A stretch of DNA of 20,354 nucleotides, taken from an uncultured virus (IMG/VR IMGVR_UViG_3300027896_000025). Its lineage: Duplodnaviria > Heunggongvirae > Uroviricota > Caudoviricetes. The DNA lies in the IMG/VR virus record IMGVR_UViG_3300027896_000025; one strand, given 5' to 3'. Positions 2,589 to 19,408 of this stretch are shown piece by piece. Every line of letters starts with the position of its first letter. Within the stretch, counting starts at the first letter, position 1. The position numbers and the translations under genes are program-made. The notes beneath the pieces were generated by a model that saw nothing but the letters and a program-made list of their open reading frames with translations, did no database searches and was not told where the DNA came from.

Positions 2589-3010
2589 ATTTAGCTGCTT
2601 TAATATACTTAACAGCGTTAGCTAATGGAGTAAATGGAAATCTAGCAGTTTCTATTGCTTGTGTTGAAAGTAGACTTAATCCTTCAGCTATTGGCAATCA
2701 AAATGATATTGGAATATTTCAAATTCGAGAGAAGTTTGTTCCAGAAAGTCGTGAGGAACTTTTAAATGCAGAAATTAATATCAATAGAGGAACTAGGATG
2801 CTGGCCCATGCTCAAACAGTTTGTAAATCTGACCTTAGTAATAACTGGTTTCTTTGCCACAATCGCGGTGTTGTGGGCGGTCGAAAAGTTGGACGAGTTG
2901 TGGCTAAGAATACGAAGTACGTCAAGACAGTAACCAAAGTTTACCAGTGTTTGAAAGGTAACACTTACAAAGACTACTTAGAACACTTCGACCCAAGGAG
3001 TTGTCTGTGA
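2585..3010 (+). CDS. SLT-family lytic transglycosylase
   Basis: Catalytic ES motif (VESRLNPSAI), GIFQI, NINRG, HNRG (AYNxG equivalent). Confidence 0.8.
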   Translation: MNLAALIYLTALANGVNGNLAVSIACVESRLNPSAIGNQNDIGIFQIREKFVPESREELLNAEININRGTRMLAHAQTVCKSDLSNNWFLCHNRGVVGGRKVGRVVAKNTKYVKTVTKVYQCLKGNTYKDYLEHFDPRSCL

Positions 3011-3159
3011 ATCAGGATTCATTTATGCGTCAACTTCGAAATATCTTTATACGAAGTAACAATTATGAAGGAGATTGTTTGGACGATTTATGATCAAGGC
3101 ATTCAATATTTGGATTGTGTTGTAATATTTTGGGCGAGTTGAAAGTTGAGGAGTTGTGA
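3007..3159 (+). pseudogene. EEL-family micro-ORF 1, interrupted by in-frame TGA at 3091-3093
   Basis: GTG 3007 frame reads MNQDSFMRQLRNIFIRSNNYEGDCLDDL*SRHSIFGLCCNILGELKVEEL*; 51 codons, both ends coupled by GTGA overlaps. Confidence 0.55.
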
Positions 3160-3314
3160 ATACTTTGGATTTAAGAGATCACTTCATTGGAATTCTAAGA
3201 TCAAAATACAATTCAAATGGAGATTTTATTAAAATACCAAGTTTAGGAAGGTATCACTGTATTAAAAATATTAGTGATTGTATAGAAACCGAAATAAGAA
3301 AGGATGAAATATGA
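3156..3314 (+). CDS. EEL-family micro-ORF 2 (52 aa, ends RKDEI)
   Basis: MNTLDLRDHFIGILRSKY...ETEIRKDEI; GTGA/ATGA overlaps at both ends. Confidence 0.7.
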   Translation: MNTLDLRDHFIGILRSKYNSNGDFIKIPSLGRYHCIKNISDCIETEIRKDEI

Positions 3315-3892
3315 TTGATAAACTAACTAAAGAACAAGAGGCTAAGATTCCAGAGTACGTTGAAAAGTACCGTGAGATCGGTTTGGACACGACTCCTTGC
3401 GACCACGCTAAGGCTGAGGCGGCGATTAAACGAGCGTACAAGTACCTGAAGTTAAAGGAGCCGACGTTCGTTTGGGCTGACTCTCCACGGGCAGGTGCTA
3501 TCATCGCCGCACGGTTAGCTAAGAGTTCGGATGATATCACTACTGAAGATTTACGTGCTCAAGCCGGTTCGGCAAACTTCGGATCGTTTGAGGCGTATTG
3601 GGTTGCGTTTTACTCGTACATTGCTCATGAGCTTCCGGTTAAGAAAGACGAGCTGATCGATATCGTTGAAGAGATTGTTAAGAACTGCGGAGTGTACTGG
3701 ACTTTTGAAAACGTGGTTGTGATGACTGAGAAGCCAGTAGCAGTTCATTTCGATAAGAACGGCCAGTTGGATAACCCGGACGGTTTGGCTTTGGAATACA
3801 AAGACGGAACTGGTATTTTCCGATTTAACGGCGTTCGTTACAAGTCGTTAATCGACATGGAGATCAATAACGCATGTGTGGACAAAAAGTAA
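3311..3892 (+). CDS. DUF6745-like domain protein
   Basis: LTKEQEAKIPEY..KY...AEAAIKRAY...P.FVWADSP N-terminus; CGVYWTFENVVVMTEKP..VHFD..GQLDNPDGLALEYKDG..IFRFNGV C-terminus. Confidence 0.75.
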   Translation: MIDKLTKEQEAKIPEYVEKYREIGLDTTPCDHAKAEAAIKRAYKYLKLKEPTFVWADSPRAGAIIAARLAKSSDDITTEDLRAQAGSANFGSFEAYWVAFYSYIAHELPVKKDELIDIVEEIVKNCGVYWTFENVVVMTEKPVAVHFDKNGQLDNPDGLALEYKDGTGIFRFNGVRYKSLIDMEINNACVDKK

Positions 3893-4020
3893 TTTTTACA
3901 TTCGAATCGTTATTTAAGTGGAAAGATGTGATTTCATATGAATTAGAAAACAACCTTAGTAATGTCGTAGAGATGAATTACTTAAGTAGTTTTGTTTATA
4001 ATGATCTGAAGGAGTTATGA
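3874..4020 (+). CDS. EEL-family micro-ORF 3 (48 aa, ends DLKEL)
   Basis: MCGQKVIFTFESLFKWKDVISYELENNLSNVVEMNYLSSFVYNDLKEL; ATGA overlap downstream. Confidence 0.65.
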   Translation: MCGQKVIFTFESLFKWKDVISYELENNLSNVVEMNYLSSFVYNDLKEL

Positions 4021-4244
4021 AAAAGAAATCTAACTTTAAAAACTGTCAAGCTGTTGTCTGGATTCCAGAATGGTTAAAAAGATTTCCGATTAAGAATCAT
4101 CCTCTGAAGTTTGGTGAAGTAGTGTACTTCTTAGGCGAAATTTCAAATTGTTCCGGACATTGTATCGTTGTTAAATTTAACGGACAAGTAATTCCGATGC
4201 TTCATACGGCAGATTTCAGATTGGCAAAGGAAAACGAACTATGA
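4017..4244 (+). CDS. hypothetical protein (75 aa, ends KENEL)
   Basis: Coupled at both ends; ends in xEL but is longer and compositionally unlike the micro-ORFs. Confidence 0.7.
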   Translation: MKKKSNFKNCQAVVWIPEWLKRFPIKNHPLKFGEVVYFLGEISNCSGHCIVVKFNGQVIPMLHTADFRLAKENEL

Positions 4245-5290
4245 ACATAACTGAGATTAAAAAAACAGTCCCGATTCTTTTGAAATCCAAAGTCGTCCCG
4301 TTCCTTTGGGGATCTCAAGGAGTTGGTAAAACTCAAGTAATGAAACAAATCGCGGCTGATTTAAAACTTGGATTCATTCATCTCCACTTGGCGACGCAGG
4401 AAGTTGGCGATTTAGTTGGATTACTAGTTCACAACGAAGACGGGACAGTCAGGCACGCTAGACCCGAGTGGTTTCCGACCGAAGGCGAAGGGATTGTTTT
4501 TTTGGATGAAGCTAATCGTGCTCATCCGGACGTGTTACAAGCTATGTACTCATTTATTACTGAGGGGACAATTCATAGACATAAACTACCTGAAGGTTGG
4601 TCAATTGTCGCAGCAGGGAATTACCAAAACGAATCGTTTCAAGTGACTGATACTTCTGACTCAGCGTGGTTATCCCGATTCTGTCACCTGGATTTTACCC
4701 CGTCTGTTGAGGAGTTTACGGGTTACGTTGAAGATCAAGGGCTAGACACAATTTCATCGTTCGTTAAAAACCATCCTGAGATGTTAGAAACGAAACCAAA
4801 AGAACGTCCGGTGTTCGAAATGTTAGTCCCGAATCGTCGCGGGTTGTGCGACATGATTGGACGGTTGGAACAGTTTTCGGACCTGGACGATGTGAGATAC
4901 GAAGTGTATTCTGGAATAATTGGAAAGATAGCAGCAGCATCGTATTTATCCTATAAGAAACAAGCGGTTAAACGGTTGTCAGGTAAACAAATCTTGAAGG
5001 ATTTCAGTAAAGTAAAGGCTGAAGTCTTAGAGATTTCGAATCCGAATAACGCACGGTTTGATTTACTAGATTCAGCGGTTGAGGAAATCATGCTTCTGCT
5101 CCCAAAGAAACCGTTGACTGATAAACAGATTGATAACTTCCAAGAGTTCTTGTTGACGATTCCTTTGGAGTTAGGACTAAAAGTTATTAATCGGATTCAT
5201 AAACTCTCATGGCCGCAGAGAAACGTTATCTTGAATGATAAGAAATTCGTAGAGAGATTTAAGAACGTGAAGTTGAAGGAGAGGAAATGA
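4241..5290 (+). CDS. MoxR-like / AAA_5-type AAA+ ATPase
   Basis: Walker A GSQGVGKT, Walker B VFLDE-ANRA, sensor AAGN, arginine finger AWLSRF. Confidence 0.9.
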   Translation: MNITEIKKTVPILLKSKVVPFLWGSQGVGKTQVMKQIAADLKLGFIHLHLATQEVGDLVGLLVHNEDGTVRHARPEWFPTEGEGIVFLDEANRAHPDVLQAMYSFITEGTIHRHKLPEGWSIVAAGNYQNESFQVTDTSDSAWLSRFCHLDFTPSVEEFTGYVEDQGLDTISSFVKNHPEMLETKPKERPVFEMLVPNRRGLCDMIGRLEQFSDLDDVRYEVYSGIIGKIAAASYLSYKKQAVKRLSGKQILKDFSKVKAEVLEISNPNNARFDLLDSAVEEIMLLLPKKPLTDKQIDNFQEFLLTIPLELGLKVINRIHKLSWPQRNVILNDKKFVERFKNVKLKERK

Positions 5291-5439
5291 ATCCTGTAAG
5301 AAAACCTGGGCACTTTATTAGTGATCAATTTGATGATCAAATTACCGAAGGACTTGGAATGAAATTAGCTGAGGAAATGAATTATGAAACTTTACATTGG
5401 GATTTAGAATATCAATTAAATTGTATTGAGGAAGTATGA
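5287..5439 (+). CDS. EEL-family micro-ORF 4 (50 aa, ends CIEEV)
   Basis: MNPVRKPGHFISDQFDDQITEGLGMKLAEEMNYETLHWDLEYQLNCIEEV; ATGA overlaps at both ends. Confidence 0.75.
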   Translation: MNPVRKPGHFISDQFDDQITEGLGMKLAEEMNYETLHWDLEYQLNCIEEV

Positions 5440-5597
5440 ATATTCGAATCAATCCTGATTTTGGAATTTACGGTTGGAGCGATCAACAAATTGGTAACAT
5501 GCCTTTTTTCAATCAGTTATTTGATAAATTCTTTGAACTTGATAGCCCAAGGATGTTACTTCAAGATCAATTTCGAACAGATGAGGAAATTCTGTGA
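5436..5597 (+). CDS. EEL-family micro-ORF 5 (53 aa, ends DEEIL)
   Basis: MNIRINPDFGIYGWSDQQIG...QDQFRTDEEIL; ATGA and GTGA overlaps. Confidence 0.7.
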   Translation: MNIRINPDFGIYGWSDQQIGNMPFFNQLFDKFFELDSPRMLLQDQFRTDEEIL

Positions 5598-6721
5598 ACA
5601 CGATCGAAACAACAATCAAATCGCTTCTCGATCACAAACCGTTTTACGCTCATTTCTTCTTGCAATGTAGAATTATTTACGACATGCCCGGAGTTCCGAC
5701 CGCAGCAGCTTCGATGACTCAATCAGGCCCGATCCTGATCTTTAACCGTGAGTTCTTAAAGGATCAACCGATTAGTAAAGTCGAAGGAGTAATTGAGCAT
5801 GAAATACTACACATCATGTTTGAGCACACTTCCCACATGAAACGGAAAGAGTTGAATCCAAAGATCAGGAACATCGCAATGGATTGCTCGATCAACCAGT
5901 ACATCCAAGATCTCCCAGACGGTTGTATTCGATTAGATGAACTTAATAAACAGTTGAAACTAAAGTTAGCACCGGAAGAGACTTGGGAGTACTACCATTA
6001 CAAACTCATGGAAAAAGCTGAAGAACTAAAATCTCAGCAGGATTTTGACGTTCATGGAGTTGATACCGGTGAAGGAGATGAGAAAGATGGAAACGGTAAA
6101 GCTGGTAAAGAAATCTCAGCCGAAACTCTTATAGGAATCATCGACAAAGCAGTTACGGATTCGGCTGGAAATCTTCCCAGTGTTGTCCAAAAGATTTGGG
6201 GGACAATGCGACGGGATTCTGTCATTCCTTGGAAGCAAGTTTTGGCGAACTTCATCTCATCCGCTATTAGCAACTCCACGCTCGCAACTAGAAAACGTCC
6301 TAACCGTAGATTTGGATTAGATCAACCAGGACGGAAAAAGAAACGGGAGTTGACGCTAGGAGTTTGCGTTGATTCATCCGGTTCAATCTCTGACGAACAG
6401 TTTCAAATGTTCTTGAATGAAATTACTAGGATAACTCCGAATTGTCGAACAACGTACGTTATCGACGCCGACTGTCAAGTCAACGGAGTTCAGACTTTAG
6501 ACAAGTACAAAAAGTTGAAATGGGAAAGAAAAGGTTGTGGCGGAACGGCGTATCAACCGGCGATCGATGAATGTGTAAAGTTGCGATGTGACGCTGTAGT
6601 GTACTTCGGCGACATGGATTCGGCGGATGAACCAAAGAATCCTGGAGTTCCATTCCTTTGGATTGTTACTGGAGAACAACAACCGCCTGGGAAGTTTGGT
6701 AAAGTGGTGAGGTTGAAATGA
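5594..6721 (+). CDS. DUF2201-type putative metallopeptidase + vWA domain protein
   Basis: HExxH (HEILH), NIAMDCSIN; MIDAS DSSGS, GGT, YFGD; follows the AAA+ ATPase as is usual for this pair. Confidence 0.88.
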   Translation: MNTIETTIKSLLDHKPFYAHFFLQCRIIYDMPGVPTAAASMTQSGPILIFNREFLKDQPISKVEGVIEHEILHIMFEHTSHMKRKELNPKIRNIAMDCSINQYIQDLPDGCIRLDELNKQLKLKLAPEETWEYYHYKLMEKAEELKSQQDFDVHGVDTGEGDEKDGNGKAGKEISAETLIGIIDKAVTDSAGNLPSVVQKIWGTMRRDSVIPWKQVLANFISSAISNSTLATRKRPNRRFGLDQPGRKKKRELTLGVCVDSSGSISDEQFQMFLNEITRITPNCRTTYVIDADCQVNGVQTLDKYKKLKWERKGCGGTAYQPAIDECVKLRCDAVVYFGDMDSADEPKNPGVPFLWIVTGEQQPPGKFGKVVRLK

Positions 6722-6861
6722 TTCTAATGGAGATGATAATACATCATTTTAAATTGAAACATATGCCAGTTTCCTTTCATGAAGACTTTAATCATAATAT
6801 CTGGATGAAATACCAACTTCAAAGAAATTTAGAAAGTCAGTTACTTTGGGAAGAACTATGA
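6718..6861 (+). CDS. EEL-family micro-ORF 6 (47 aa, ends LLWEEL)
   Basis: MILMEMIIHHFKLKH...KYQLQRNLESQLLWEEL; ATGA overlaps. Confidence 0.7.
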   Translation: MILMEMIIHHFKLKHMPVSFHEDFNHNIWMKYQLQRNLESQLLWEEL

Positions 6862-7005
6862 AACGAATTGATTTCGACGGATTATTTTTTAATGGACTTA
6901 GTACTCTTTGGGGTAGAAATTCAAACGAACTGTTTATAGATATTTATTATTTGTCAGAATTAGTTGTAAACTTGGATAGAGAAATACTTTGGGACGAATT
7001 ATGAA
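6842..7005 (+). repeat. imperfect 21-bp direct repeat at consecutive micro-ORF ends
   Basis: TACTTTGGGAAGAACTATGAA (6842-6862) vs TACTTTGGGACGAATTATGAA (6985-7005), 19/21 identical. Confidence 0.8.
6858..7004 (+). CDS. EEL-family micro-ORF 7 (48 aa, ends ILWDEL)
   Basis: MKRIDFDGLFFNGLSTLWG...VVNLDREILWDEL; ATGA overlaps. Confidence 0.7.
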   Translation: MKRIDFDGLFFNGLSTLWGRNSNELFIDIYYLSELVVNLDREILWDEL

Positions 7006-7183
7006 TTCTGGTGAACAAATCAACTCTCAATTATTTAACGAGATAGAGCCAAGACTGAAAGATTGTATAACTAAAAAACTTTATAGCGATGTAAGATACG
7101 ATCTTAGCGACAAGTTATTTTTATTTCGTGTGTTTGGAATGTTTAGTTCGTTAAGTCATTCATTGAAACAGGAGGAATTATGA
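7001..7183 (+). CDS. EEL-family micro-ORF 8 (60 aa, ends KQEEL)
   Basis: Start at ATG 7001 via ATGA overlap; hydrophobic residue every 4th position. Confidence 0.75.
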   Translation: MNSGEQINSQLFNEIEPRLKDCITKKLYSDVRYDLSDKLFLFRVFGMFSSLSHSLKQEEL

Positions 7184-7230
7184 TAGAGATAGCGGTGTTT
7201 GTTTTACTAGCTTTTTTTATTACAAAGTGA
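7180..7230 (+). CDS. putative 16-aa hydrophobic peptide MIEIAVFVLLAFFITK
   Basis: GGAGG SD, ATGA overlap; links micro-ORF 8 to the protease gene. Confidence 0.4.
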   Translation: MIEIAVFVLLAFFITK

Positions 7231-7934
7231 TGGACGATATGAAGTACCTATCAGTAGTGATGTTTGCCTTAATCTTAACAATCTTCGGAAGCTGCGCCGT
7301 TCCGCATTCTAAAGCCGACGACCGGATTCGAGTCGCGGTGATTGACACGGGAGTTGATTACAGATACATTCCAAAGTCGAAGGTTTGCGGATACTACGAT
7401 CTAACTGGGGAAGGTAAAATTGATCCGACAAAGCACGGAACTTTGGTCTCAGGATTAATCCTTCGAGAATCTCACGACGCTCCAATTTGTTTGGTTTTAG
7501 TAAAATGGTACTCAGCCAAAAACTCCAAGGAACGATTAAAAGATAATGTTATCGCAGCTTTGAAGATCGTTTTACGTCAACACGTTCAGTACTTAAACAT
7601 CTCCCAAGATGGAGGATTTAACAGCCCAGAGGAACGATCTCTCTTACAACAGATTTTGAATCAAGGAGTAGTCGTTGCAGTTTCGGCTGGAAATTACGGT
7701 GAAGATGAATCTATTCAGTGCGACACGTTTCCAGCATGTTACACTTTAAAAGGCAAGTTCTTCGTCGTCGGAGCTACTAACGAAGACGGATTGCGCTGGC
7801 ATCTTAGTAACTACGGTGGACCGATAAAGTCATGGGCACCTGGCGAACATCAATGTTACAAGGGGATCTGTCAGTCGGGAACTTCGTTTTCATCTCCGAA
7901 TTTTTTGGGAAAGTACATTGGAGAAGTTCAATGA
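7227..7934 (+). CDS. subtilisin-like (S8) serine protease, exported / putative lipoprotein
   Basis: Triad VAVIDTG, HGTLVSG, SGTSFSSP; oxyanion SAGN; signal peptide ending FGS-C; start could be 7227, 7230 or 7239. Confidence 0.88.
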   Translation: MMDDMKYLSVVMFALILTIFGSCAVPHSKADDRIRVAVIDTGVDYRYIPKSKVCGYYDLTGEGKIDPTKHGTLVSGLILRESHDAPICLVLVKWYSAKNSKERLKDNVIAALKIVLRQHVQYLNISQDGGFNSPEERSLLQQILNQGVVVAVSAGNYGEDESIQCDTFPACYTLKGKFFVVGATNEDGLRWHLSNYGGPIKSWAPGEHQCYKGICQSGTSFSSPNFLGKYIGEVQ

Positions 7935-8083
7935 ACAGAGTAGTTTGGACAAGTAATAAAGATCCAATCTTTAAAGAATTAGTACATTATAGAAAGGAGT
8001 ATTTGGAAATAAATAGATACATAATAGGTCACGATATAATCTGTTTTTTAGTTGGTGAATACTTACAGACTGAGGAGTTATGA
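7931..8083 (+). CDS. EEL-family micro-ORF 9 (50 aa, MNRVVW...LQTEEL)
   Basis: ATGA overlaps at both ends; start moved to 7931. Confidence 0.75.
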   Translation: MNRVVWTSNKDPIFKELVHYRKEYLEINRYIIGHDIICFLVGEYLQTEEL

Positions 8084-8247
8084 AAGTAGTTTGGAGTTAT
8101 TCAGAAGATCTGTTATTTGATAAGTTATTATTTAAATACAAAGATAAGATGGGGTATTTGAGAGATACAATCGTTGGTTCACTAGAAGGTCAAATTGGAG
8201 ATCTTAGATCTGAAGTACTACGGTTGATATTTAATGAGGAGATATGA
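8080..8247 (+). CDS. EEL-family micro-ORF 10 (55 aa, MKVVW...IFNEEI)
   Basis: Hand-translated; ATGA overlaps; N-terminus resembles micro-ORF 9. Confidence 0.75.
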   Translation: MKVVWSYSEDLLFDKLLFKYKDKMGYLRDTIVGSLEGQIGDLRSEVLRLIFNEEI

Positions 8248-8429
8248 ATCCTGATCAACAAATTCAGAAGTTTTTTGATACAGAACTTTACGATGGGTTA
8301 ATAATTCAGTACGGCGAATCACGATTTGAAGAGATTTATAAAAAGTTTACTAATCAGATGAGAACCGTTAAACAGATTTATTTGACAGAGTTTGAGTTAA
8401 CTGTGGAAATGACTAAGGACGAAGTATGA
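8244..8429 (+). CDS. EEL-family micro-ORF 11 (61 aa, ends TKDEV)
   Basis: ORF track; ATGA overlaps. Confidence 0.75.
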   Translation: MNPDQQIQKFFDTELYDGLIIQYGESRFEEIYKKFTNQMRTVKQIYLTEFELTVEMTKDEV

Positions 8430-8576
8430 AAGAACTGAATACTAAACTTTATCTCTTATTGAAAAATAATACCGGATTTAGATTCAGAGATGTGAATTGG
8501 TTTTCACAACTGCACATTTTGAATTTTCAAATTAAAGATGAATTACACACTGAATTAGCTAAGGACGAAGTATGAA
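8413..8576 (+). repeat. perfect 18-bp direct repeat flanking micro-ORF 12
   Basis: CTAAGGACGAAGTATGAA at 8413-8430 and 8559-8576. Confidence 0.9.
8426..8575 (+). CDS. EEL-family micro-ORF 12 (49 aa, ends AKDEV)
   Basis: MKELNTKLYLLLKNNTGF...LNFQIKDELHTELAKDEV; 43 G+C in 150 nt by hand count. Confidence 0.75.
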   Translation: MKELNTKLYLLLKNNTGFRFRDVNWFSQLHILNFQIKDELHTELAKDEV

Positions 8577-8868
8577 TCTTGAGATTTTTGCTTTGACCTC
8601 AGCAATGTGTTTTTCGAATTACTCAGGACAGACTTGTACTAAAACTACTGAGGCGGCTTTAAAGTACGAAGGAATGTGGAACTACGCGGAACAATTAGGG
8701 AAGTATGCTAAAGAAATTTCAGGCGAAGTTCCAGCTTACATCGCCGCGATGAGCTACGAAGTCGCTAAGGAGAAAAAGATTCGCTTGACAACTCATGGTA
8801 ATATGTGTTACACTGTAGAAGTTAGTAAAGATTCTGGAGTTGCTAAAATAACTTGGAAGATTTGGTAA
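8572..8868 (+). CDS. hypothetical, possibly exported protein (98 aa)
   Basis: Hydrophobic N-terminus; C-terminal alternating strand ending in Trp. Confidence 0.65.
   Translation: MNLEIFALTSAMCFSNYSGQTCTKTTEAALKYEGMWNYAEQLGKYAKEISGEVPAYIAAMSYEVAKEKKIRLTTHGNMCYTVEVSKDSGVAKITWKIW
8785..8814 (+). promoter_or_regulatory. candidate sigma70 promoter embedded in CDS
   Basis: TTGACA (8785-8790), 18 bp, TGn-TACACT (8809-8814). Confidence 0.55.
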
Positions 8869-9463: not shown

Positions 9464-9531
9464 TTTTAATAGCTGAAATAATATTTTTTGGTGGAATTCT
9501 AATCGCCGGGGTGTTGTTACTAAGTGACTGA
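9460..9531 (+). CDS. putative 23-aa membrane peptide MILIAEIIFFGGILIAGVLLLSD
   Basis: ATGA overlap; entirely hydrophobic. Confidence 0.45.
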   Translation: MILIAEIIFFGGILIAGVLLLSD

Positions 9532-9938: not shown

Positions 9939-9944
9939 TATTAC

Positions 9945-10112
9945 ATGAAGCTGGGAAAAGTAGTCTGGGATCATAATAATGAAATTTTTTTCCATCGTCT
10001 TGATGATGACTTAAAATTAGAGGAATCTTATTTATTTCTTGAAAGATTCACAGATATCCAAAGTGAAAATTTATTTGTTATTCTTAAGGAAGAAATGGAA
10101 TTTCTAGAATGA
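9945..10112 (+). CDS. EEL-family-related micro-ORF 13 (55 aa, MKLGKVVW...KEEMEFLE)
   Basis: Shares VVW N-terminus with micro-ORFs 9/10; terminal motif diverged; ATGA overlap. Confidence 0.7.
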   Translation: MKLGKVVWDHNNEIFFHRLDDDLKLEESYLFLERFTDIQSENLFVILKEEMEFLE

Positions 10113-10273
10113 AGCCGGGGAAACAAATTCCTCTATTAATTAGTATAGTCAATAATAGTTTAGAACCTGCTTATAATGAGGGAAGATATTATTGGGAAAA
10201 AATTCAGAGACAACTCATTATGAGTGATGAAATGATAGCGCATGTATTAGATTTTATTGGGTACGAGTTATGA
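10109..10273 (+). CDS. EEL-family micro-ORF 14 (54 aa, MKPGKQI...IGYEL)
   Basis: Hand-translated; ATGA overlaps at both ends. Confidence 0.7.
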   Translation: MKPGKQIPLLISIVNNSLEPAYNEGRYYWEKIQRQLIMSDEMIAHVLDFIGYEL

Positions 10274-11489: not shown

Positions 11490-12612
11490 ACGATTATCTC
11501 ATTCATCAGTATCTCTTTTTTCGCAATGTGGAGAAAAATTCCGTTTACACTACGATGAGGGACTTCGTGAAAAAGTAGGGTCTTCTGCACTTCTTTTCGG
11601 ATCTGCTGTTGATAACACTCTGAATGAGTTACTAAAAGATAAACAACGTGAAGATGTTAAAAGCGTTAGTTATTACCAGAATAAATTTGAGAACAATTGG
11701 CTGATTGGTGAGATTAATAAACAAAAGATTGAAATGCCCGAAACTCTCGACGCGACGTACGCCGACTCCGACATGCAGTTTGATGTACTAAACACTACAG
11801 ATATCTCAAGATTAAAAAACTTCTTAATCAAAAATACAATTGAAACTGAAACTGGTAAAAATGACCGAGAATCTGTTGAAAAAACGTACGATAAAATTGC
11901 TGCGATTAAACGAGCAACAGGTATTGAAAACATGTACCAACCGTCAGCCCGATTCGTGAATCTGGCAAACTGGCTTTCCTTGAACCATAAAGGAAAAGCT
12001 ATGATCGAAACGTACTACAACAAGATTCTTCCCAGAATTACTAAAGTACTGTACGTTCAAGAAGTCGTGAATCTAGATAACGAAGAAGGAGATTCTGTAA
12101 TCGGATACGTGGATTTAGTAGCTGAGATTGACGGAGTTGTTCGGATCTTAGATAATAAAACATCTGCGCGTGAATATGATAAAGATTCCGCCAACATCTC
12201 AGCACAATTAGCAATTTATCGAAATGCGCTTCGCGATAGAGTTGATACTCCTCATGTTGGATTCATCGTGATGCGAAAAGGATTGAAACTCAATAAATCA
12301 AAATGCTGTTCAAAATGCGGAAATGATGGAACTGGGAATCGAGCTAGAACTTGTGACAAAGAAATTCGAGGAGAACGTTGTAAAGGAGAATGGATTGAAA
12401 CTGTTTCCCCAGAAGCGATAATTGAAGATTGCTTTGGAACAATAAATGAGTACTTTGAAACTCAAGTGATTGACAATTATGAGAATGTTCTTCATGCCAT
12501 TCGTAGTGAACAATTTTATAAGAACTGGACAGAATGTGTAAAACCGTACGGTCGTTGTCCGTACTACAATATTTGTCACACTGGTAAAGAAGAGAAACTA
12601 ATTAAAGTATGA
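11479..12612 (+). CDS. PD-(D/E)XK nuclease (AddB/Cas4-like exonuclease)
   Basis: LSHSS..LFSQC, GYVDLV...ILDNKTS, QLAIY, C-terminal C......CPY..IC; GGAG SD before ATG 11479. Confidence 0.88.
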   Translation: MKTRRLSHSSVSLFSQCGEKFRLHYDEGLREKVGSSALLFGSAVDNTLNELLKDKQREDVKSVSYYQNKFENNWLIGEINKQKIEMPETLDATYADSDMQFDVLNTTDISRLKNFLIKNTIETETGKNDRESVEKTYDKIAAIKRATGIENMYQPSARFVNLANWLSLNHKGKAMIETYYNKILPRITKVLYVQEVVNLDNEEGDSVIGYVDLVAEIDGVVRILDNKTSAREYDKDSANISAQLAIYRNALRDRVDTPHVGFIVMRKGLKLNKSKCCSKCGNDGTGNRARTCDKEIRGERCKGEWIETVSPEAIIEDCFGTINEYFETQVIDNYENVLHAIRSEQFYKNWTECVKPYGRCPYYNICHTGKEEKLIKV

Positions 12613-12794
12613 AACTGGCAACTAATAATCCTCTCATGAGATTTTTCTGGAATTTAGTTACTCCGATAAATAACTTTGCATTTGATTTTGTTAATCAAGA
12701 CATTCGAATGGATTTACGTTGGGAATTAAATAAAGCGAATCTGTCTGAAACTTACATGAGAGTTAAAGAAATGTTACGCGAGGAAGAATTGTGA
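12609..12794 (+). CDS. EEL-family micro-ORF 15 (61 aa, ends REEEL)
   Basis: ATGA/GTGA overlaps; V-NQD-I-RMD-L-RWE-L tetrad. Confidence 0.75.
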   Translation: MKLATNNPLMRFFWNLVTPINNFAFDFVNQDIRMDLRWELNKANLSETYMRVKEMLREEEL

Positions 12795-12979: not shown

Positions 12980-12980
12980 T

Positions 12981-13286: not shown

Positions 13287-13294
13287 GGAGAACT

Positions 13295-13969: not shown

Positions 13970-13971
13970 AC

Positions 13972-15499: not shown

Positions 15500-17404
15500 G
15501 TGCTTTACCGAAGAGTTTGTCAAGGTTTATCAGACGGGGGTGTACTGATTCCAGAATCCGAAAATGTAAAAAATTACATTGACGACAAGGATTGTTACGA
15601 ATCACTGTATTTGTACAACGAAGATCAAAAACGCCAGTTCGATGAAACTGGATCAGTTGCAGGAATTCAAGATGTTGTTACTAACCAGTTATACCTAGAT
15701 TTCGATTCAAAAGATAACTTAGAAGCTGCTAAACATGACGCATTAGCAGTTCTTAATCAACTTAATAAATTCAACATTGAACCAGAGATTTCTTTCACCG
15801 GATGTAAAGGTTTTTCTCTAAGAATTCCTTTAGATCAGTACATCTCTGTTTCAGAGTTCAAAACAGCAGTGTTTAATCTGGCTGGAGATCTCACCACTTT
15901 CGATCGAGTAGTAAATAATCCTAGCCGTATCATTCGAGTTCTAAATACTAAGCATCAAGATTCTGGACTTTACAAACTCCAAATCACAGAGCAGGAACTT
16001 CGCGAGGCGACGATTGAAGACATTTTCCATTGGGCTGAGACAAAGGGCGAACCGTTCGACGTTCCAGCTGTGAAACTCCCTGAGTTTTTGAAGGTTAAGG
16101 AACTTCCAAAGCCTTCAGTTCCAGTACAAATCCTTCCACTGGATTTCGCCAACAAACCAAAGTTTCTTTCGAATTGTAGATGGGCACTCCAAAATGGAAT
16201 GTTTAAGGAAGGTCAACGATCGACAGCGTTGTTGTGCCTTGCTTCAACGTACAAAAACTTAGGCTACGATCAAGAGATCGTTTACCGAATGTTGAAGGGA
16301 GTTTCAGAGTTACAAGCTCAGAGAAACAACCAGGAACGATTTCCCGACGAAGAGATTTATAACAACATCGTCGTTCAAGTGTTTAACGAATCTTGGAAAA
16401 ATGGTCAGTATTCCTGCCGCGAACCTGGGAACTTTCTGTACAATTACTGTCAGGGATTAGGCCATCATAAATGTAATCATCAAGTCGATGATCAGATGAA
16501 GCCCACGAGTCTGGATGAAGTTCATGATTCATTCAAACACTTCGTAACTCACATTGAAGAAAACACTGTTCTGACAGGGATTAAAGCGATTGACGAGAAC
16601 TTCTTTCTAACAACAGGTAGTAACGTTTTGATCTTAGGTGCGGCGGCTTCTGGTAAAACAGCATTAGCTTTGAATATTCTAAATAACACTTCGAAACAAG
16701 GAATCAAGTCAGTCTTCGCATCGTTAGACATGGCACGTAACAGAATGTTTGAGAAAGTAATGTACAAAATCACGGGACTTCCACGCGAAGAGTTGTACCA
16801 TCGATTTCAAATGGATCAAGAAGGTCCACTTATGGATACTCTAAAAAAAGAATTCGGTAACGTGTATTTCTTTAATAAATCCTGCCCGACTGTTCAGGAT
16901 CTTCGCGAATACATTTTAATGTGTCAGGAAACTTCCGGTGAACGAATTAAGTTAGTAATGGTTGATTACTTCGAACGAGTTACTAGTGAAGTCTCCGACG
17001 ATACAGCAGCTTCTAAACGAGTTGCTGGCGAACTCCAAGATTTAGTAAACGATTTGGACGTTTGTTTGATCACATTAGTACAACCAAACAAAGCGTCGAT
17101 CTTTGGCGGTCCCGACGCTCCAATTTACAACTACACCGCGATCAAAGGATCAAGTTTCGTTTACCAAGCCGGTCGCCAGATTCTGAGTATTTGGAGACCG
17201 TTTGCGACGCCAGAATTGAAGGCGAATGATCATTTCTTACAACTAGCGATTTTGAAAAACGATCTTGGTGAGATGAGCGAGTATGTTTTTGGTTGGAATG
17301 GTAAACGTGGCGACATTTACGAGTTGGCAGACCATCAGATTGAAGAGTTTGAAGAACTGTTAGCGAAAAAAGAACGTGAGAAAAAAGTAAAGGATGGATT
17401 TTAA
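15500..17404 (+). CDS. bifunctional primase (AEP/PrimPol-type) - DnaB-like SF4 helicase
   Basis: LYLDFD, SFTGCKGF, RIIRV.NTKH; PriCT-like GQRS.AL; Walker A GAAASGKT, SLDM, Walker B VMVDY; GGAGG SD. Confidence 0.85.
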   Translation: MLYRRVCQGLSDGGVLIPESENVKNYIDDKDCYESLYLYNEDQKRQFDETGSVAGIQDVVTNQLYLDFDSKDNLEAAKHDALAVLNQLNKFNIEPEISFTGCKGFSLRIPLDQYISVSEFKTAVFNLAGDLTTFDRVVNNPSRIIRVLNTKHQDSGLYKLQITEQELREATIEDIFHWAETKGEPFDVPAVKLPEFLKVKELPKPSVPVQILPLDFANKPKFLSNCRWALQNGMFKEGQRSTALLCLASTYKNLGYDQEIVYRMLKGVSELQAQRNNQERFPDEEIYNNIVVQVFNESWKNGQYSCREPGNFLYNYCQGLGHHKCNHQVDDQMKPTSLDEVHDSFKHFVTHIEENTVLTGIKAIDENFFLTTGSNVLILGAAASGKTALALNILNNTSKQGIKSVFASLDMARNRMFEKVMYKITGLPREELYHRFQMDQEGPLMDTLKKEFGNVYFFNKSCPTVQDLREYILMCQETSGERIKLVMVDYFERVTSEVSDDTAASKRVAGELQDLVNDLDVCLITLVQPNKASIFGGPDAPIYNYTAIKGSSFVYQAGRQILSIWRPFATPELKANDHFLQLAILKNDLGEMSEYVFGWNGKRGDIYELADHQIEEFEELLAKKEREKKVKDGF

Positions 17405-17587: not shown

Positions 17588-17589
17588 CA

Positions 17590-18096
17590 ATGTCTAAGAC
17601 TTTTACCATTACTTCCAAAACTCATGGATTGTTCAATGTTATTGTTGACGATGAGGATTTTGAACGAGTAATGAAATACAATTGGTCAATCTCAAAAAAT
17701 GGTAATTATTTTAGAGCTGAAACTAGAACAAGTGAAAATAAATTAATGCGGCTTCATCGATTTATTCTGGGATTAAAACAAGATGATCGAAGAGAAATTG
17801 ATCATAAAAATCGTAATCCAATGGATAACAGAAAAGAAAATCTAAGAATCGCGACTAGACAACAAAATGCTCGAAATATGAAATGTAAAGTTCACCCAAA
17901 TAAAACAGGATTCATTGGAGTTTATAGAAATAACGGTAAAGGAAAATATCGAGCTTGTATCTCGATTGATGATAAAACATTTCATATTCCAGGAAATTAT
18001 AATACTGCTAAAGAAGCAGCTTTTGCTAGGGATCGCTATGCCTTAAGAATTGCTGGCGAATTTGCTGTACTAAATTTTGAGGATAAAGATGTTTAG
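17590..18096 (+). CDS. HNH-AP2 homing endonuclease
   Basis: IVDDED, LHRFI, IDHKNRNPMDNRKENLR, AP2 domain TGFIGV...YRACI...AKEAAFARD...GEFAVLNF. Confidence 0.9.
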   Translation: MSKTFTITSKTHGLFNVIVDDEDFERVMKYNWSISKNGNYFRAETRTSENKLMRLHRFILGLKQDDRREIDHKNRNPMDNRKENLRIATRQQNARNMKCKVHPNKTGFIGVYRNNGKGKYRACISIDDKTFHIPGNYNTAKEAAFARDRYALRIAGEFAVLNFEDKDV

Positions 18097-19060
18097 AGAT
18101 GAAGGGCCGAAGTTGCCAATTGAGAACGTAAATATGATACTAAACAATGGAGGTGCCGGGGATATTGTTGCCTGTTTTCCAGTACTTAGCTATGTTTTAA
18201 AGTATCAAACTAACGTCATCCCTCACGTCCACGTTCCAAATTACATGAAGCAGTTTACTAAGACTGTGTTCCCAACGATCAACGTCTACGGATTCACAGA
18301 ATCAAAAACTAAACTTAAGGAGACTGGAAATTTCGCCGCAGCTCAAACGTTACAATCTCACGTCACTAATATGAGAATGCATTCCACCGATTACGCTTTC
18401 ATGACGTTACTTGACAAGCAAGTCCCCGATCAGTACAAAGATTACGTTAAGTACCCAGTTGGATCAGTTGACATCTCAAGATTCAACCTTCCCAAAGACT
18501 TCGTAGTCGTCAATACAGGATTCACAATTCCATCAAAGGCATGGCCCGCTCAAGAGGTTAATAAAGTTGTCAAGTGGTTACTGTCAAAAAACATAACTCC
18601 CGTATTTTTGGGAAAAGACGACATTCAGGAACAAGGAGCAGCGAAACAGCTAGACGATCCATTACAACACGCGAAGTTCGTTGAAGAAGTTCAGTACTCC
18701 TCGGGGATGGATCTCAGAAATCAGACAGATTTATGCGAAGCGACTGAGATTCTTGCGAAATCAAAAGCGTTTGTTGGACTGGACGGTGGATTGTTCCATT
18801 TAGCCGCCTGTACTGACGTTCCGATCGTCGTGGGATTCACGTTTGTCGATCCTCGCCATATCGTACCATTTCGAGATGGGAAGTGGGCTGGTGGAATTGA
18901 GATCGTGTTACCAGATGAATTGTTAAAGTGTACTGGCTGTCAGAGTAATTGGGCGCATTTATACAACTTTTCGTTTCGAACATGCTGGTACGATGATTAC
19001 CTTTGCGCCAAACAGATGACAGGTGAGAAGTTTATTGACAAACTCGAGCAAAAGTTGTAA
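18089..19060 (+). CDS. glycosyltransferase family 9 (ADP-heptose:LPS heptosyltransferase-like)
   Basis: GGAGDIV...P, K.WP, DLRNQTDL.E...IL, FVGLDGGLFHLAA..DVP.V..F; GAGG SD before ATG 18089. Confidence 0.85.
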   Translation: MFRDEGPKLPIENVNMILNNGGAGDIVACFPVLSYVLKYQTNVIPHVHVPNYMKQFTKTVFPTINVYGFTESKTKLKETGNFAAAQTLQSHVTNMRMHSTDYAFMTLLDKQVPDQYKDYVKYPVGSVDISRFNLPKDFVVVNTGFTIPSKAWPAQEVNKVVKWLLSKNITPVFLGKDDIQEQGAAKQLDDPLQHAKFVEEVQYSSGMDLRNQTDLCEATEILAKSKAFVGLDGGLFHLAACTDVPIVVGFTFVDPRHIVPFRDGKWAGGIEIVLPDELLKCTGCQSNWAHLYNFSFRTCWYDDYLCAKQMTGEKFIDKLEQKL

Positions 19061-19063
19061 AAT
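19035..19063 (+). promoter_or_regulatory. candidate sigma70 promoter at GT9 3' end
   Basis: TTGACA (19035-19040), 17 bp, TAAAAT (19058-19063). Confidence 0.55.
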
Positions 19064-19229
19064 GAAGGTTATAAGATTGGAAAGTGATCTCGAAAATATT
19101 ATGGAAGTGAAAATTGATAAAGATTTTAAGTACAATACTAATGAACATCTTAGAAATTGTTTATTAGATTGGTTTGGATTTGATCGTCAAACGGTATTAA
19201 AAAGTGTAATCGCAATAGAGGAACTATGA
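19062..19229 (+). CDS. EEL-family micro-ORF 16 (55 aa, ends AIEEL)
   Basis: ATG 19062 just after GT9 stop; ATGA overlap downstream. Confidence 0.7.
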   Translation: MKVIRLESDLENIMEVKIDKDFKYNTNEHLRNCLLDWFGFDRQTVLKSVIAIEEL

Positions 19230-19408
19230 TTCCATTTAGTAGTTTATCACTTTCATATTTACTAGATGAACGGTTAATCGATCCAAATAACTCAGGGAAG
19301 TTTGATCTTTACGAAATTAAAATGTTCAATGAATACCTTAATCCTATAGATGATGATAACCATTTACAGTTTCAAATCATTCAACAGATTCAGTTAGAAG
19401 AGTTATGA
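19226..19408 (+). CDS. EEL-family micro-ORF 17 (60 aa, ends QLEEL)
   Basis: ATGA overlaps at both ends. Confidence 0.75.
   Translation: MIPFSSLSLSYLLDERLIDPNNSGKFDLYEIKMFNEYLNPIDDDNHLQFQIIQQIQLEEL

What the first reader, a model, noticed from the sequence alone, without database searches (positions are those of the whole stretch)
3007..19408. Dispersed family of 17 hypervariable micro-genes with a shared C-terminal [DE]-E-[LIV] motif, in 8 cassette-like arrays
Seen: 47-61 aa ORFs at 3007, 3156, 3874, 5287, 5436, 6718, 6858, 7001, 7931, 8080, 8244, 8426, 9945, 10109, 12609, 19062 and 19226. They occur singly or in tandems of 2-4 between large genes, and all end in an ATGA/GTGA stop-start overlap. 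Thirteen end in [DE]E[LIV]* (EEL x7, DEV x2, DEL, DEI, EEV, EEI), two in xEL*, one in EEIL*, and one is diverged. Bodies are highly divergent, rich in F/L/I/N/D/E and nearly Ala-free. They are AT-rich (8426-8575: 43 G+C in 150 nt, versus 33 in 60 nt at 3361-3420). None of the large enzyme genes ends this way. Inference: an expanding, fast-diversifying paralog/cassette system with a variable body and a constant tag, such as an anti-defence or host-interaction peptide repertoire. I do not recognise a described family with this layout.
Basis: partly seen in the sequence, partly recalled or inferred. Interest (0 to 1): 0.9.

Follow-up and report, generated by a model that had tools for sequence, protein, structure and literature searches.

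The report
Phage micro-gene family with junction-shaped tails
Sixteen tiny, fast-evolving genes packed between the enzyme genes of an uncultured freshwater phage are real relatives of one another, but their shared ending looks mostly like a by-product of how each gene hands the ribosome to the next, not a proven signal tag.

Summary
The one at 3007 is broken by an in-frame TGA. All 16 end in ATGA/GTGA and 12 end strictly in [DE]E[LIV].

- **Specific to this genome:** 0 of 158 comparable junction ORFs in 12 related phage loci end this way.
- **Forced parts of the tail:** the next gene's Shine-Dalgarno (GGA at -9..-7) makes codon -3 D or E. The ATGA overlap makes the last codon NNA.
- **Unforced parts:** E at -2 and L/I/V at -1. 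Only 0.39 of 16 full motifs are expected from the two forced constraints.
- **Family membership:** reciprocal profile searches tie the ORFs to a multi-copy micro-protein family in related phages. That family has period-4 "DQLW" repeats, which also form the central repeat of long DUF6745 proteins.
- **Tails in relatives:** they differ (EYD*, YEA*) and are shadows of the relatives' own gene overlaps.
- **The window's tail** has the shape of the family's last repeat unit, recoded to carry the restart signal.
- **Strain contigs:** homology breaks at cassette junctions, and protein change is fast (5 of 8 differences nonsynonymous, against 2 of 17 in the neighbouring gene).

Function is unknown. The anti-defence role is untested.

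The parts
3156..3314 (+). micro-ORF, 52 aa, GTG start, ends KDEI*, ATGA-coupled to the DUF6745 gene
   Evidence: The junction 25-mer is repeat family D2. Weak family score: 36/200 shuffles reach it.
3874..4020 (+). micro-ORF, 48 aa, ends KEL*, ATGA-coupled
   Evidence: The relatives-only HMM score is reached by 1/200 shuffles.
5287..5439 (+). micro-ORF, 50 aa, ends EEV*, lies between the ATPase and VWA-like genes
   Evidence: Relatives-only HMM E=0.004, 0/200 shuffles. This slot is empty in L004, L005, L008, L010 and L011.
5436..5597 (+). micro-ORF, 53 aa, ends EEIL*, GTGA-coupled to the VWA-like gene
   Evidence: 13/200 shuffles reach its score.
6718..6861 (+). micro-ORF, 47 aa, ends WEEL*; C-terminal part reads as tetrads YQLQ-RNLE-SQLL-WEEL
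   Evidence: HMM E=0.026, 2/200 shuffles. A 38-nt tail repeat is shared with the next cassette (D6).
6858..7004 (+). micro-ORF, 48 aa, ends WDEL*
   Evidence: D6, D2. 2/200 shuffles.
7001..7183 (+). micro-ORF, 60 aa, ends QEEL*; the clearest member of the clade-wide family (N-terminus MNSGEQINSQLF)
   Evidence: Relatives-only HMM E=4e-5, 0/200 shuffles. tblastn E=0.002 to L005/L012. Alignment A3.
7180..7230 (+). 16-codon bridge ORF between micro-ORF 7001 and the subtilase start (ATGA, then TGATG)
7931..8083 (+). micro-ORF, 50 aa, ends TEEL*; member of the VVW triad
8080..8247 (+). micro-ORF, 55 aa, ends NEEI*; member of the VVW triad
   Evidence: 1/200 shuffles.
8244..8429 (+). micro-ORF, 61 aa, ends KDEV*
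   Evidence: D2. AF2 single-sequence model is all-helical, pLDDT 74, with helix 25-60.
8426..8575 (+). micro-ORF, 49 aa, ends KDEV*; found as an isolated homology block in a strain contig
   Evidence: Record 7 matches only 8425-8579. 5 nonsynonymous and 3 synonymous among the 8 listed differences.
9945..10112 (+). micro-ORF, 55 aa, diverged tail (EEMEFLE*); triad member; no SD before its start
   Evidence: A promoter-like site at 9910-9938 lies just upstream.
10109..10273 (+). micro-ORF, 54 aa, ends GYEL*; N-terminus MKPGKQI
12609..12794 (+). micro-ORF, 61 aa, ends EEEL*, GTGA-coupled
19062..19229 (+). micro-ORF, 55 aa, ends IEEL*
   Evidence: 6/200 shuffles.
19226..19408 (+). micro-ORF, 60 aa, ends LEEL*
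3007..3159 (+). broken member: 28 codons ending DDL* at an ATGA (TGA at 3091-3093), then the same frame runs on to EEL* at a GTGA
   Evidence: The same letters occur in a second record, L017.
3311..3892 (+). DUF6745 protein, 193 aa; has the N- and C-terminal domains of the long DUF6745 proteins but lacks their central tetrad repeat
   Evidence: Pfam PF20530 E=1.9e-14. Alignment A4. AF2 pLDDT 91.7.
4241..5290 (+). MoxR-like AAA ATPase, conserved with DUF6745 and the VWA-like gene across the clade
5594..6721 (+). VWA-like / DUF2201 protein

Best explanation
The window is the early/replication module of an uncultured freshwater phage. The 16 intact micro-ORFs (plus one broken copy) are real, translationally coupled small genes for helical proteins.

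They are this phage's own divergent, AT-rich branch of a multi-copy micro-protein family found in related phages. That family has a start of the form M-x-K-x-x-Q-I/L followed by period-4 '[DN]-Q-[LIV]-x' repeats. The same repeat forms the long central region of full-length DUF6745 proteins. The phage's own DUF6745 gene lacks it.

I infer that the copies spread by tandem duplication and by junction-to-junction exchange into the slots between conserved genes, and that the bodies then diverged quickly.

The shared [DE]E[LIV]* ending is a genome-specific tail, not the family's constant:
- Codon -3 is forced to D/E by the next gene's Shine-Dalgarno (GGA at -9..-7).
- The last codon is forced to NNA by the ATGA overlap.
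- The remaining E-[LIV] has the shape of the family's terminal 'polar-Q/E-hydrophobic' repeat unit. I infer that it was inherited with the junction at each duplication and kept by selection on the junction.

Shown: paralogy, the link to the clade-wide family and to the DUF6745 repeat, the forced positions, genome-specific tails, and strain-level cassette variation.

Inferred: the duplication/exchange mechanism and why E-[LIV] is kept.

Unknown: what the proteins do. The fusion of such repeats to DUF6745 elsewhere suggests they act with the DUF6745/MoxR/VWA module.
For: **Real genes**
- The ORFs tile the gaps with ATGA/GTGA at 16 of 16 ends.
- The chance of an open 47-codon frame at this base composition is 0.0105.

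**Forced parts of the tail**
- Before starts that follow R-type ORFs: G(-9) 10/16, G(-8) 13/16, A(-7) 15/16.
- Non-ATGA starts share the GG (13/30 and 16/30).
- Wobble positions in the tail are G/C-enriched: GAG:GAA is 10:13 against 11:48 in the bodies (p=0.027), and GAC:GAT is 3:1 against 5:53 (p=0.006).
- The NNA-UGA bias caused by overlapping AUG starts is published (PMC7246954, passages read).

**Family**
- Body similarity z=5.9, and z=4.6 after removing the obvious pairs. Controls give 0.64.
- An HMM of 28 relatives' ORFs, with no window sequence in it, puts R-type ORFs at 10 of the top 13 among 133 window ORFs (p=6e-9). Mean z against shuffles is 2.75. R versus controls gives MWU p=4e-4. 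Scores barely change without the last 4 residues.
- An HMM of the R set with the tag removed finds the relatives' family at 21 of its top 30 among 1,432 ORFs that hold 28 family members (p=5e-34).
- Control profiles give 3/30 (other small ORFs) and 0-5/30 (ten shuffled-R profiles). The R profile still gives 16/30 without the first 8 residues, and 16/30 without the three best members.
- Q[LIV] in the R bodies: 17 seen against 8.2 expected (z=3.4). Controls z=-1.3, relatives z=18.
- Hydrophobic residues at -6 and -10: 12/16 each, against 5/25 and 4/25 in other ORFs.

**Link to DUF6745**
- The family profile hits 1,255 representative proteins.
- Of 13 top hits scanned, 8 carry PF20530 C-terminal to the repeats, 7 of them above Pfam's cut-off.

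**Genome-specific tails**
- L001: EYD*/EYDQA*, from 8- or 14-nt overlaps with the next gene's MTKHKQ start.
- L006: YE[AT]*, from 11-nt overlaps with MRRR.
- L005 and L008: a plain ATGA overlap.
- The window's motif is in 0 of 158 junction ORFs of 12 loci.

**Cassette behaviour**
- No micro-ORF is found in the relatives.
- ATPase and VWA genes are adjacent in 5 loci.
- Strain contigs break at 5291, match only 8425-8579, and join 6869 to 7162.
- Nonsynonymous:synonymous is 5:3 in the cassette against 2:15 in the subtilase (p=0.017).
Against: - Individual membership is weak for several ORFs. Shuffles reach the observed score in 101/200 for 7931, 40/200 for 12609, 36/200 for 3156 and 30/200 for 9945.
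- Leave-one-out HMMs within the R set recognise only 9945 clearly, and 5287, 5436, 6858 and 7001 marginally.
- The period-4 signal in the R set is faint: z=2.0 at lag 4, against 11.8 in the relatives.
- The N-terminal x-Q-I signature is in only 3 of 16.
- The window has none of the relatives' 12-nt DNA repeats.
- E at -2 (14/16) and NT[AG] as the last codon (15/16) are not forced by the SD or the ATGA overlap. T at -1 occurs in only 6/30 non-ATGA starts. A peptide-level function of the tail is therefore not excluded.
- The strain evidence rests on three short contigs of depth 4-8 from one run that is probably the source sample. Only 8 of 13 differences in record 7 were shown, and 43 further rows were not shown.
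- No expression data exist, and only 20 kb of an 82 kb contig could be examined.
Confidence: 0.62

Rival explanations
1. The tail is a functional C-terminal peptide tag: an acidic-hydrophobic docking or degradation signal, Phi-x3-Phi-x2-[DE]-E-Phi-COOH. It is carried by a diversifying repertoire of micro-proteins, so many variable bodies are delivered to one common partner.
For: - E at -2 (14/16) and a hydrophobic last residue (15/16) are not forced by the SD or the ATGA overlap. Only 0.39 of 16 full motifs are expected.
- Variation at -6, -3 and -2 follows codon wobble, so residue class is kept while bases vary.
- Hydrophobic positions at -6 and -10 extend the motif.
- The AF2 model puts a helix up to the C-terminus.
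- The bodies change fast, 5:3 nonsynonymous to synonymous.
Against: - Homologous micro-ORFs in related phages have other tails that are plainly overlap shadows.
- 0 of 158 junction ORFs elsewhere carry the motif.
- The motif never occurs in this window without an ATGA/GTGA overlap.
- Codon choice in the tail is bent toward SD-like G/C.
- The same polar-Q/E-hydrophobic triplet is the family's internal repeat.
- No partner is known.
Confidence: 0.17
2. Relay ORFs: selection acts mainly on keeping each frame open and on its 3' junction, so that ribosomes are passed along the operon to the conserved enzymes. The peptide sequences themselves are nearly neutral remnants of the repeat family.
For: - Only the last 25-38 nt of cassettes are similar at the DNA level.
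- The bodies have drifted to 26-33% G+C and have no relatives outside this contig.
- A high nonsynonymous share.
- A 16-codon bridge ORF and a broken copy keep the coupling chain going.
- Almost every gene in the window is stop-start coupled.
Against: - Relatives manage with the conserved genes directly adjacent, so spacers are not needed.
- The bodies keep order-dependent family signal and Q[LIV] enrichment.
- Lengths stay within 47-61 aa.
Confidence: 0.13
3. Pure by-product: unrelated small ORFs that merely share an in-frame Shine-Dalgarno and an ATGA overlap. There is no family.
For: - GGA at -9..-7 is shared with other starts, and GA at -8/-7 makes codon -3 D/E automatically.
- The NNA-UGA bias from overlapping starts is known (PMC7246954).
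- Other phages of the clade show their own recurring junction endings.
Against: - Expected 0.39 of 16 motifs under these constraints against 12 seen.
- None of the 12 other ATGA-coupled genes ends [DE]E[LIV].
- Tag-independent similarity among the bodies and to the relatives' family, with negative controls.
Confidence: 0.05
4. The ORFs are not genes: chance open frames in AT-rich spacers.
For: - No family hits.
- No RNA run listed.
- The coding-score test is biased toward open frames.
Against: - P(open) is about 0.003-0.01 per ORF, yet 16 tile the gaps exactly with coupled stops and starts and an SD.
- Family signal.
- Gene callers of the source data also called them.
Confidence: 0.03

Closest known systems
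Central tetrad repeat of DUF6745 (PF20530) proteins, and the stand-alone repeat micro-ORFs of related uncultured phages (loci L001, L005, L006, L008)
   Same: - Mutual profile recognition.
- Q[LIV] enrichment.
- Small size, multi-copy arrays, and stop-start overlap with the next copy.
- Neighbourhood of the DUF6745-MoxR-VWA genes.
   Different: - The window's copies have lost the 12-nt DNA repeat.
- They show only a faint period-4 signal.
- They are much more AT-rich.
- Only 3 of 16 keep the x-Q-I start.
- They end in their own [DE]E[LIV] tail.
- Neither the micro-ORFs nor the repeat is a described family, and no paper in the library mentions DUF6745.
Translational coupling through 4-nt ATGA overlaps with the downstream Shine-Dalgarno inside the upstream gene
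   Same: - All 16 ORFs end in ATGA/GTGA with GGA at -9..-7.
- The forced NNA last codon is a known genome-wide bias (PMC7246954, passages).
- The role of the SD and short distance in coupling is reviewed in PMC12548453 (abstract passage).
   Different: - Coupling explains only codon -3 and the third base of the last codon.
- It does not explain E at -2, the hydrophobic last residue, or positions -6 and -10.
Arrays of small, fast-evolving early genes in lytic phages, such as T4 hyperplastic regions with PeSL cassettes and the SPO1 host-takeover module (recalled, from no call)
   Same: Many small orphan genes between conserved genes, lineage-specific content, and slot-wise presence or absence.
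   Different: - No promoter/stem-loop cassette borders. Promoter-like sites number 43 against 53 expected, and junction folds have mean z of 0.02.
- The units here are one paralogous family joined by overlapping stop-start codons.
Acidic C-terminal tails ending in a hydrophobic residue that dock on partner proteins, such as the bacterial SSB C-terminal tip (recalled, from no call)
   Same: A free C-terminus of the form acidic-acidic-hydrophobic.
   Different: - No sequence match was tested or is claimed.
- The tail is not conserved in homologs from other genomes.
- No partner is known.

Membership tests
Clade-wide tetrad-repeat micro-protein family (DUF6745-type central repeat) | Sequence profile of the family recognises the candidates, and the reverse | tested here: met
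   - Relatives-only HMM: 10 of the top 13 among 133 window ORFs are R-type.
- R-only HMM without the tag: 21 of the top 30 among 1,432 ORFs are family members.
- Control profiles give 3/30 and 0-5/30.
- Per ORF the support is uneven: 6 of 16 have at most 2/200 shuffles reaching their score, and 4 of 16 have 30 or more.
Clade-wide tetrad-repeat micro-protein family (DUF6745-type central repeat) | Period-4 hydrophobic repeat with Q[LIV] units | tested here: inconclusive
   Autocorrelation z=2.0 at lag 4 and 1.5 at lag 8, against 11.8 and 10.5 in the relatives. Q[LIV] enrichment is met, z=3.4.
Clade-wide tetrad-repeat micro-protein family (DUF6745-type central repeat) | N-terminal M-x-K-x-x-Q-[IL] signature | tested here: inconclusive
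   Q-I at residues 6-7 in 3 of 16 (7001, 8244, 10109). Expected 0.06, P=4e-5, but 13 of 16 lack it.
Clade-wide tetrad-repeat micro-protein family (DUF6745-type central repeat) | 12-nt tandem DNA repeat underlying the protein repeat | tested here: not met
   L001 has arrays of up to 33.7 copies. The window has none in the micro-ORFs.
Functional C-terminal peptide tag (docking or degradation signal) | Tag conserved in homologs irrespective of gene-junction context | tested here: not met
   Relatives' homologs end EYD*, YE[AT]*, ELSG[KR]* or variably. 0 of 158 junction ORFs carry the motif. In the window it never occurs without an ATGA/GTGA overlap.
Functional C-terminal peptide tag (docking or degradation signal) | A partner that recognises the tag | not testable with these tools
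   The complex predictor was not available. The host is unknown.
By-product of Shine-Dalgarno plus ATGA overlap | The SD core lies at the same distance as before other starts and forces the residue | tested here: met
   GG at -9/-8 in 10 and 13 of 16, against 13 and 16 of 30 non-ATGA starts. GA at -8/-7 makes codon -3 D/E.
By-product of Shine-Dalgarno plus ATGA overlap | These two constraints suffice to give the whole motif | tested here: not met
   Expected 0.39 of 16 against 12 observed.
Promoter/stem-loop bounded mobile cassettes (T4 PeSL-type; the features are recalled) | A promoter and a stem-loop at cassette borders | tested here: not met
   Promoter-like sites: 43 found against 53 +/- 8 expected. 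Junction windows fold no better than shuffles, mean z 0.02 over 16 junctions.
Any Pfam-A, PHROGs or PADLOC family | A significant profile match | tested here: not met
   - 0 families for the 16 intact micro-ORFs and the 28-aa first part of 3007 in Pfam (E<=0.01) and PHROGs (E<=0.001).
- None for 7001 and 5287 at E<=1.
- None in PADLOC for the 4 tested.

The most novel reading that the evidence does not exclude
The micro-ORFs are a diversifying repertoire of small helical proteins. They are split off from the repeat 'stalk' of DUF6745 proteins, and in this phage they all carry one docking tail, Phi-x3-Phi-x2-[DE]-E-Phi-COOH. The tail would deliver variable bodies to a single partner: the phage's own repeat-less DUF6745/MoxR/VWA module or a host factor. 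The cassettes would be swapped between strains at their junctions, giving a modular host-interaction or counter-defence library.
Probability: 0.15. Interest if true: 0.78.

Novelty: new variant of a known kind. Interest (0 to 1): 0.5.

Why it matters
- It shows how a convincing shared 'peptide tag' can arise from gene-junction mechanics plus common descent. This is a caution for motif-based discovery in phage dark matter.
- It uncovers an undescribed, widespread element. The period-4 DQLW repeat of DUF6745 proteins gives 1,255 representative hits. It also exists as free-standing, multi-copy, rapidly changing micro-genes in a clade of uncultured phages that share a DUF6745-MoxR-VWA module.
- Here these micro-genes take up 16% of a 16 kb stretch and appear to vary by slot between strains.
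- If they prove functional, they would give an entry point to the role of that module and to how phages generate small-protein diversity.

Tried and rejected
**Finding relatives**
- The whole genome is not held. Only 20 kb of the 82 kb contig, plus 1,220 nt from the identical record L017, could be read. The extra stretch shows no member by eye.
- Megablast to isolated phages gave no match. The best tblastn hit for the ATPase is about 25% identical.
- Single-protein locus searches in viral contigs found nothing. An alignment was needed.

**Testing the family**
- Local-alignment all-vs-all: only the 7931/8080/9945 triad and 3874/19062 exceed shuffles.
- Leave-one-out MAFFT/HMM within the R set was weak.
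- The codon-usage frame test is uninformative because open frames lack stops by definition.
- An RNA hairpin at the junctions is rejected: mean z 0.02 for R junctions and 0.25 for other ATGA junctions.
- Promoter-bounded cassettes are rejected.

**Database searches**
- Word-based search with the 16 peptides returned only the window's own proteins. With the family alignment it returned 5 hits.
- The ESM Atlas gave no usable hit.
- PADLOC and NCBIfam have nothing for the micro-ORFs or DUF6745.
- The DUF6745 model has no structural relative: Foldseek best E=0.19 with TM about 0.1, VIA-align best Z=3.4.
- The control ORFs that scored with the family HMM (19405, 856, 17405) do not look like members on inspection.

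**Not available or blank**
- Complex prediction of DUF6745 with micro-ORF 7001 was not available.
- Sequencing runs: one DNA run, probably the source, and no RNA holder listed.
- Earlier scan notes returned nothing.
- A literature search for phage tandem small paralogs gave nothing specific; only the listing was read.

Full report
**Setting.** The window is a one-strand, tightly packed block at about 38% G+C. Its larger genes are:

| Gene | Coordinates |
|---|---|
| SLT transglycosylase | 2585-3010 |
| DUF6745 protein | 3311-3892 |
| MoxR-like AAA ATPase | 4241-5290 |
| VWA-like/DUF2201 protein | 5594-6721 |
| Subtilase | 7230-7934 |
| HNH endonucleases (three) | 2028-2588, 10848-11489, 17590-18096 |
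| PD-(D/E)XK exonuclease | 11479-12612 |
| Erf | 13295-13969 |
| Primase-helicase | 15500-17404 |
| GT9 glycosyltransferase | 18089-19060 |

The region is a phage early/replication module.

- No isolated phage is close: megablast gives no match and the best tblastn ATPase hit is about 25% identical.
- Metagenomes hold many relatives at 50-63% ATPase identity. I fetched 16 loci of them.
- A second record, L017, is identical to window 1-13798.
- The only sequencing run that holds the region is a freshwater metagenome, probably the source.

**Checking the observation.**

- 16 of the 17 ORFs are as described: 47-61 aa, 26-33% G+C, each ending in ATGA or GTGA.
- The ORF at 3007 is broken. A TGA at 3091-3093 ends it after 28 codons, at another ATGA. 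The EEL* at 3157-3159 is reached only by reading through.
- 12 of the 16 intact ORFs end strictly in [DE]E[LIV].
- In my tiling, none of the 12 other ATGA-coupled genes ends so. One ends NEL.

**Is the tail only a Shine-Dalgarno read in frame?** This was my first idea. It is partly right.

What the SD and the overlap explain:

- Before starts that follow R-type ORFs the consensus is G(-9) G(-8) A(-7) N G(-5) A(-4) R(-3) N T(-1) ATGA.
- The GG at -9/-8 also precedes non-ATGA starts (13/30 and 16/30). GA at -8/-7 makes codon -3 D or E automatically.
- The ATGA overlap makes the last codon NNA. This is a bias already described genome-wide (PMC7246954, passages read).
- Wobble bases in the tail are shifted toward G/C relative to the bodies. 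GAG:GAA is 10:13 against 11:48 (p=0.027). GAC:GAT is 3:1 against 5:53 (p=0.006).

What they do not explain:

- GA at -5/-4 and T at -1 (15/16) are not general. T at -1 occurs in 6/30 non-ATGA starts.
- With both constraints imposed, only 0.39 of 16 full motifs are expected, against 12 seen.
- Residues -6 and -10 are hydrophobic in 12/16 each, against 5/25 and 4/25 in other small ORFs.
- No RNA hairpin accounts for this: mean z is 0.02.

**Are the ORFs related to each other?**

- Local alignments single out only the 7931/8080/9945 triad and 3874/19062.
- Anchored global alignment of residues 3 to -5 gives z=5.9 against shuffles. It stays at 5.2 and 4.6 after removing the triad and the obvious pairs. 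17 other small ORFs give 0.64.
- Leave-one-out HMMs are weak.
- At the DNA level, only the last 25-38 nt of some cassettes are alike (families D2 and D6).

**The relatives settle it.**

- None of the window's small ORFs is found in the 16 loci, apart from a weak hit of 7001 to L005/L012 (E=0.002). Only DUF6745, the ATPase, the VWA-like gene and a few replication genes are conserved.
- In five loci the ATPase and VWA genes are adjacent, where the window has two micro-ORFs.
- The [DE]E[LIV] ending occurs in 0 of 207 ATGA-junction ORFs of the loci, or 0 of 158 in 12 loci after dropping four look-alikes.
- Each relative has its own recurring endings.
- An all-against-all search of 1,565 small ORFs found one component of 52. 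After setting aside alternate-frame and antisense artefacts of a DNA repeat, it contains 28 clean members in L001, L005, L006 and L008.
- These members start M-[KT]-K-[HR]-[KE]-Q-[IL] and continue with period-4 '[DN]-Q-[LIV]-x' repeats (autocorrelation z=11.8, 10.5 and 9.9 at lags 4, 8 and 12).
- In L001 they sit on 12-nt DNA tandem repeats of up to 33.7 copies.

**Link between the window's ORFs and that family.**

- A profile of the 28, with no window sequence in it, ranks R-type ORFs first among 133 window ORFs. 7001 scores E=4e-5, 5287 scores 0.004 and 6718 scores 0.026. 10 of the top 13 are R-type (p=6e-9).
- Against 200 shuffles each, the mean z is 2.75. Six ORFs are reached by at most 2 shuffles. 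Four (7931, 12609, 3156, 9945) are reached by 30 or more.
- R versus control ORFs gives MWU p=4e-4. Removing the last four residues barely changes the scores.
- In reverse, a profile of the R set without its tag finds the family in its top 8 hits and in 21 of its top 30, among 1,432 non-window ORFs that hold 28 members (p=5e-34).
- A profile of 17 control ORFs gives 3/30, and ten shuffled-R profiles give 0-5/30. The R profile still gives 16/30 without its first 8 residues and 16/30 without its three best members.
- The R bodies are enriched in Q[LIV]: 17 against 8.2 expected (z=3.4). Controls are not (z=-1.3) and the reversed dipeptide is not (z=0.1).
- Three members keep Q-I at residues 6-7 (P=4e-5).
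- The period-4 signal itself is faint in the R set (z=2.0), and the DNA repeat is gone.

I read the R set as a decayed, AT-rich local branch of the family. Some individual members are not secure.

**What the family is.**

- Pfam and PHROGs do not know it.
- A full HMMER search of 1.84 billion representatives gives 1,255 hits at E<=0.001. The best are proteins of roughly 370-800 aa with 2-6 matching stretches.
- Of 13 hits I scanned, 8 carry PF20530 (DUF6745) after the repeats, 7 of them above Pfam's cut-off, and 5 carry no family.
- Their sequences show an N-terminal domain, dozens of tetrads and then DUF6745.
- The phage DUF6745 protein aligns with both end domains but lacks the repeat.
- Its model is confident (pLDDT 91.7) but has no solved relative.
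- No paper in the library mentions DUF6745.

**Why the tails differ by genome.**

- In L001 the tail E-Y-D* (or E-Y-D-Q-A*) is the out-of-frame reading of the next copy's M-T-K-H-K start, through an 8- or 14-nt overlap. The SD supplies the preceding E-G.
- In L006, Y-E-[AT]* shadows M-R-R-R through an 11-nt overlap.
- L005 and L008 use a plain ATGA.

The tail is therefore a property of each genome's junction, not of the family. The window's [DE]-E-[LIV]-stop has the shape of the family's polar-Q/E-hydrophobic unit. Its codons also serve as SD and restart site. I infer that it was inherited with the junction at each duplication and is held there by selection on the junction. A peptide-level role is not excluded.

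**Strain-level evidence.** The source run holds minor contigs at 80-92% likeness.

| Record | Length and depth | What it shows |
|---|---|---|
| 3 | 535 nt, depth 4.3 | Follows the ATPase 3' end to 5291, the ATGA junction, then differs for 344 nt |
| 7 | 491 nt, depth 8 | Matches only 8425-8579, the 8426 cassette, with unlike flanks |
| 5 | 703 nt, depth 4.8 | Joins 6869 to 7162, skipping 292 nt; what lies between is not known |

- Of the 8 listed differences in the cassette (13 exist), 5 are nonsynonymous. In the subtilase part, 2 of 17 are (p=0.017).
- This fits fast-changing, exchangeable cassettes.
- The evidence rests on few short contigs, and 43 further rows were not shown.

**Function.** Function is unknown.

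- A single-sequence model of 8244 is all-helical at moderate confidence, with a long C-terminal helix.
- The defence and naming libraries are silent.
- The fusion of such repeats with DUF6745 elsewhere suggests the micro-proteins act with the DUF6745/MoxR/VWA module. The complex predictor was not available to test this.
- No RNA run is listed, so expression is untested.

**Verdict.** The family reading is supported and extended to a clade-wide, undescribed repeat family. The 'constant functional tag' reading is weakened but not excluded. The anti-defence idea is untested.

Comparisons with T4 PeSL cassettes, the SPO1 host-takeover genes and SSB-type tails are recalled from memory and come from no call.

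Noticed in passing
window 3007-3159: A broken family member. An in-frame TGA at 3091-3093 sits in a junction-like context (…DDL* with ATGA) and is followed by an 11-codon restart ORF. The original frame runs on to EEL* at a GTGA. The same letters occur in the second record, L017.
   Followed up: partly
window 7180-7230: A 16-codon, very hydrophobic bridge ORF links micro-ORF 7001 (ATGA) to the subtilase start (TGATG). It is either a remnant of a lost cassette or a tiny membrane peptide.
   Followed up: no
window 2028-2588 and 10848-11489: Two AT-rich HNH endonuclease genes are paralogs (87 nt at 72%, repeat D1). Strain contigs show joints between them (2450 to 11010 and 2450 to 11344), probably further copies elsewhere or chimeric assembly.
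   Followed up: no
window 9910-9938 and 19035-19063: Promoter-like sites (10/12 and 11/12 matches) lie directly before or across the starts of micro-ORFs 9945 (which has no SD) and 19062. These could be new transcription units or a leaderless start. Promoter-like sites are not enriched overall.
   Followed up: no
window 12791-12979: A 62-aa ORF after micro-ORF 12609 that is almost entirely hydrophobic, probably a small membrane protein.
   Followed up: no
L001 9767-9931 and 11063-11464; L006 several: 12-nt tandem DNA repeats (unit encoding D-Q-L-W) keep several frames open on both strands. This creates spurious alternate-frame and antisense ORFs (GTS/LVPK-type) that gene callers and clustering pick up.
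   Followed up: partly
L013 6828-7120, 7342-7572, 8072-8209: Another phage of the clade has its own small paralog family (W-rich, ending [TM][RG]TK*), with junction tails identical over about 18 nt. It is not related to the tetrad family by my profiles.
   Followed up: no
window 3311-3892 (model mfe56cf9130ef): The DUF6745 protein gives a confident model (pLDDT 91.7) with no solved structural relative (best Z 3.4). It may be an undescribed fold. It is conserved next to a MoxR ATPase and a VWA-like protein across the clade.
   Followed up: partly
protein P0101: An 89%-identical ATPase fragment on a 962-nt metagenome contig shows that a much closer relative of this phage exists. It could give a direct cassette-by-cassette comparison.
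   Followed up: no
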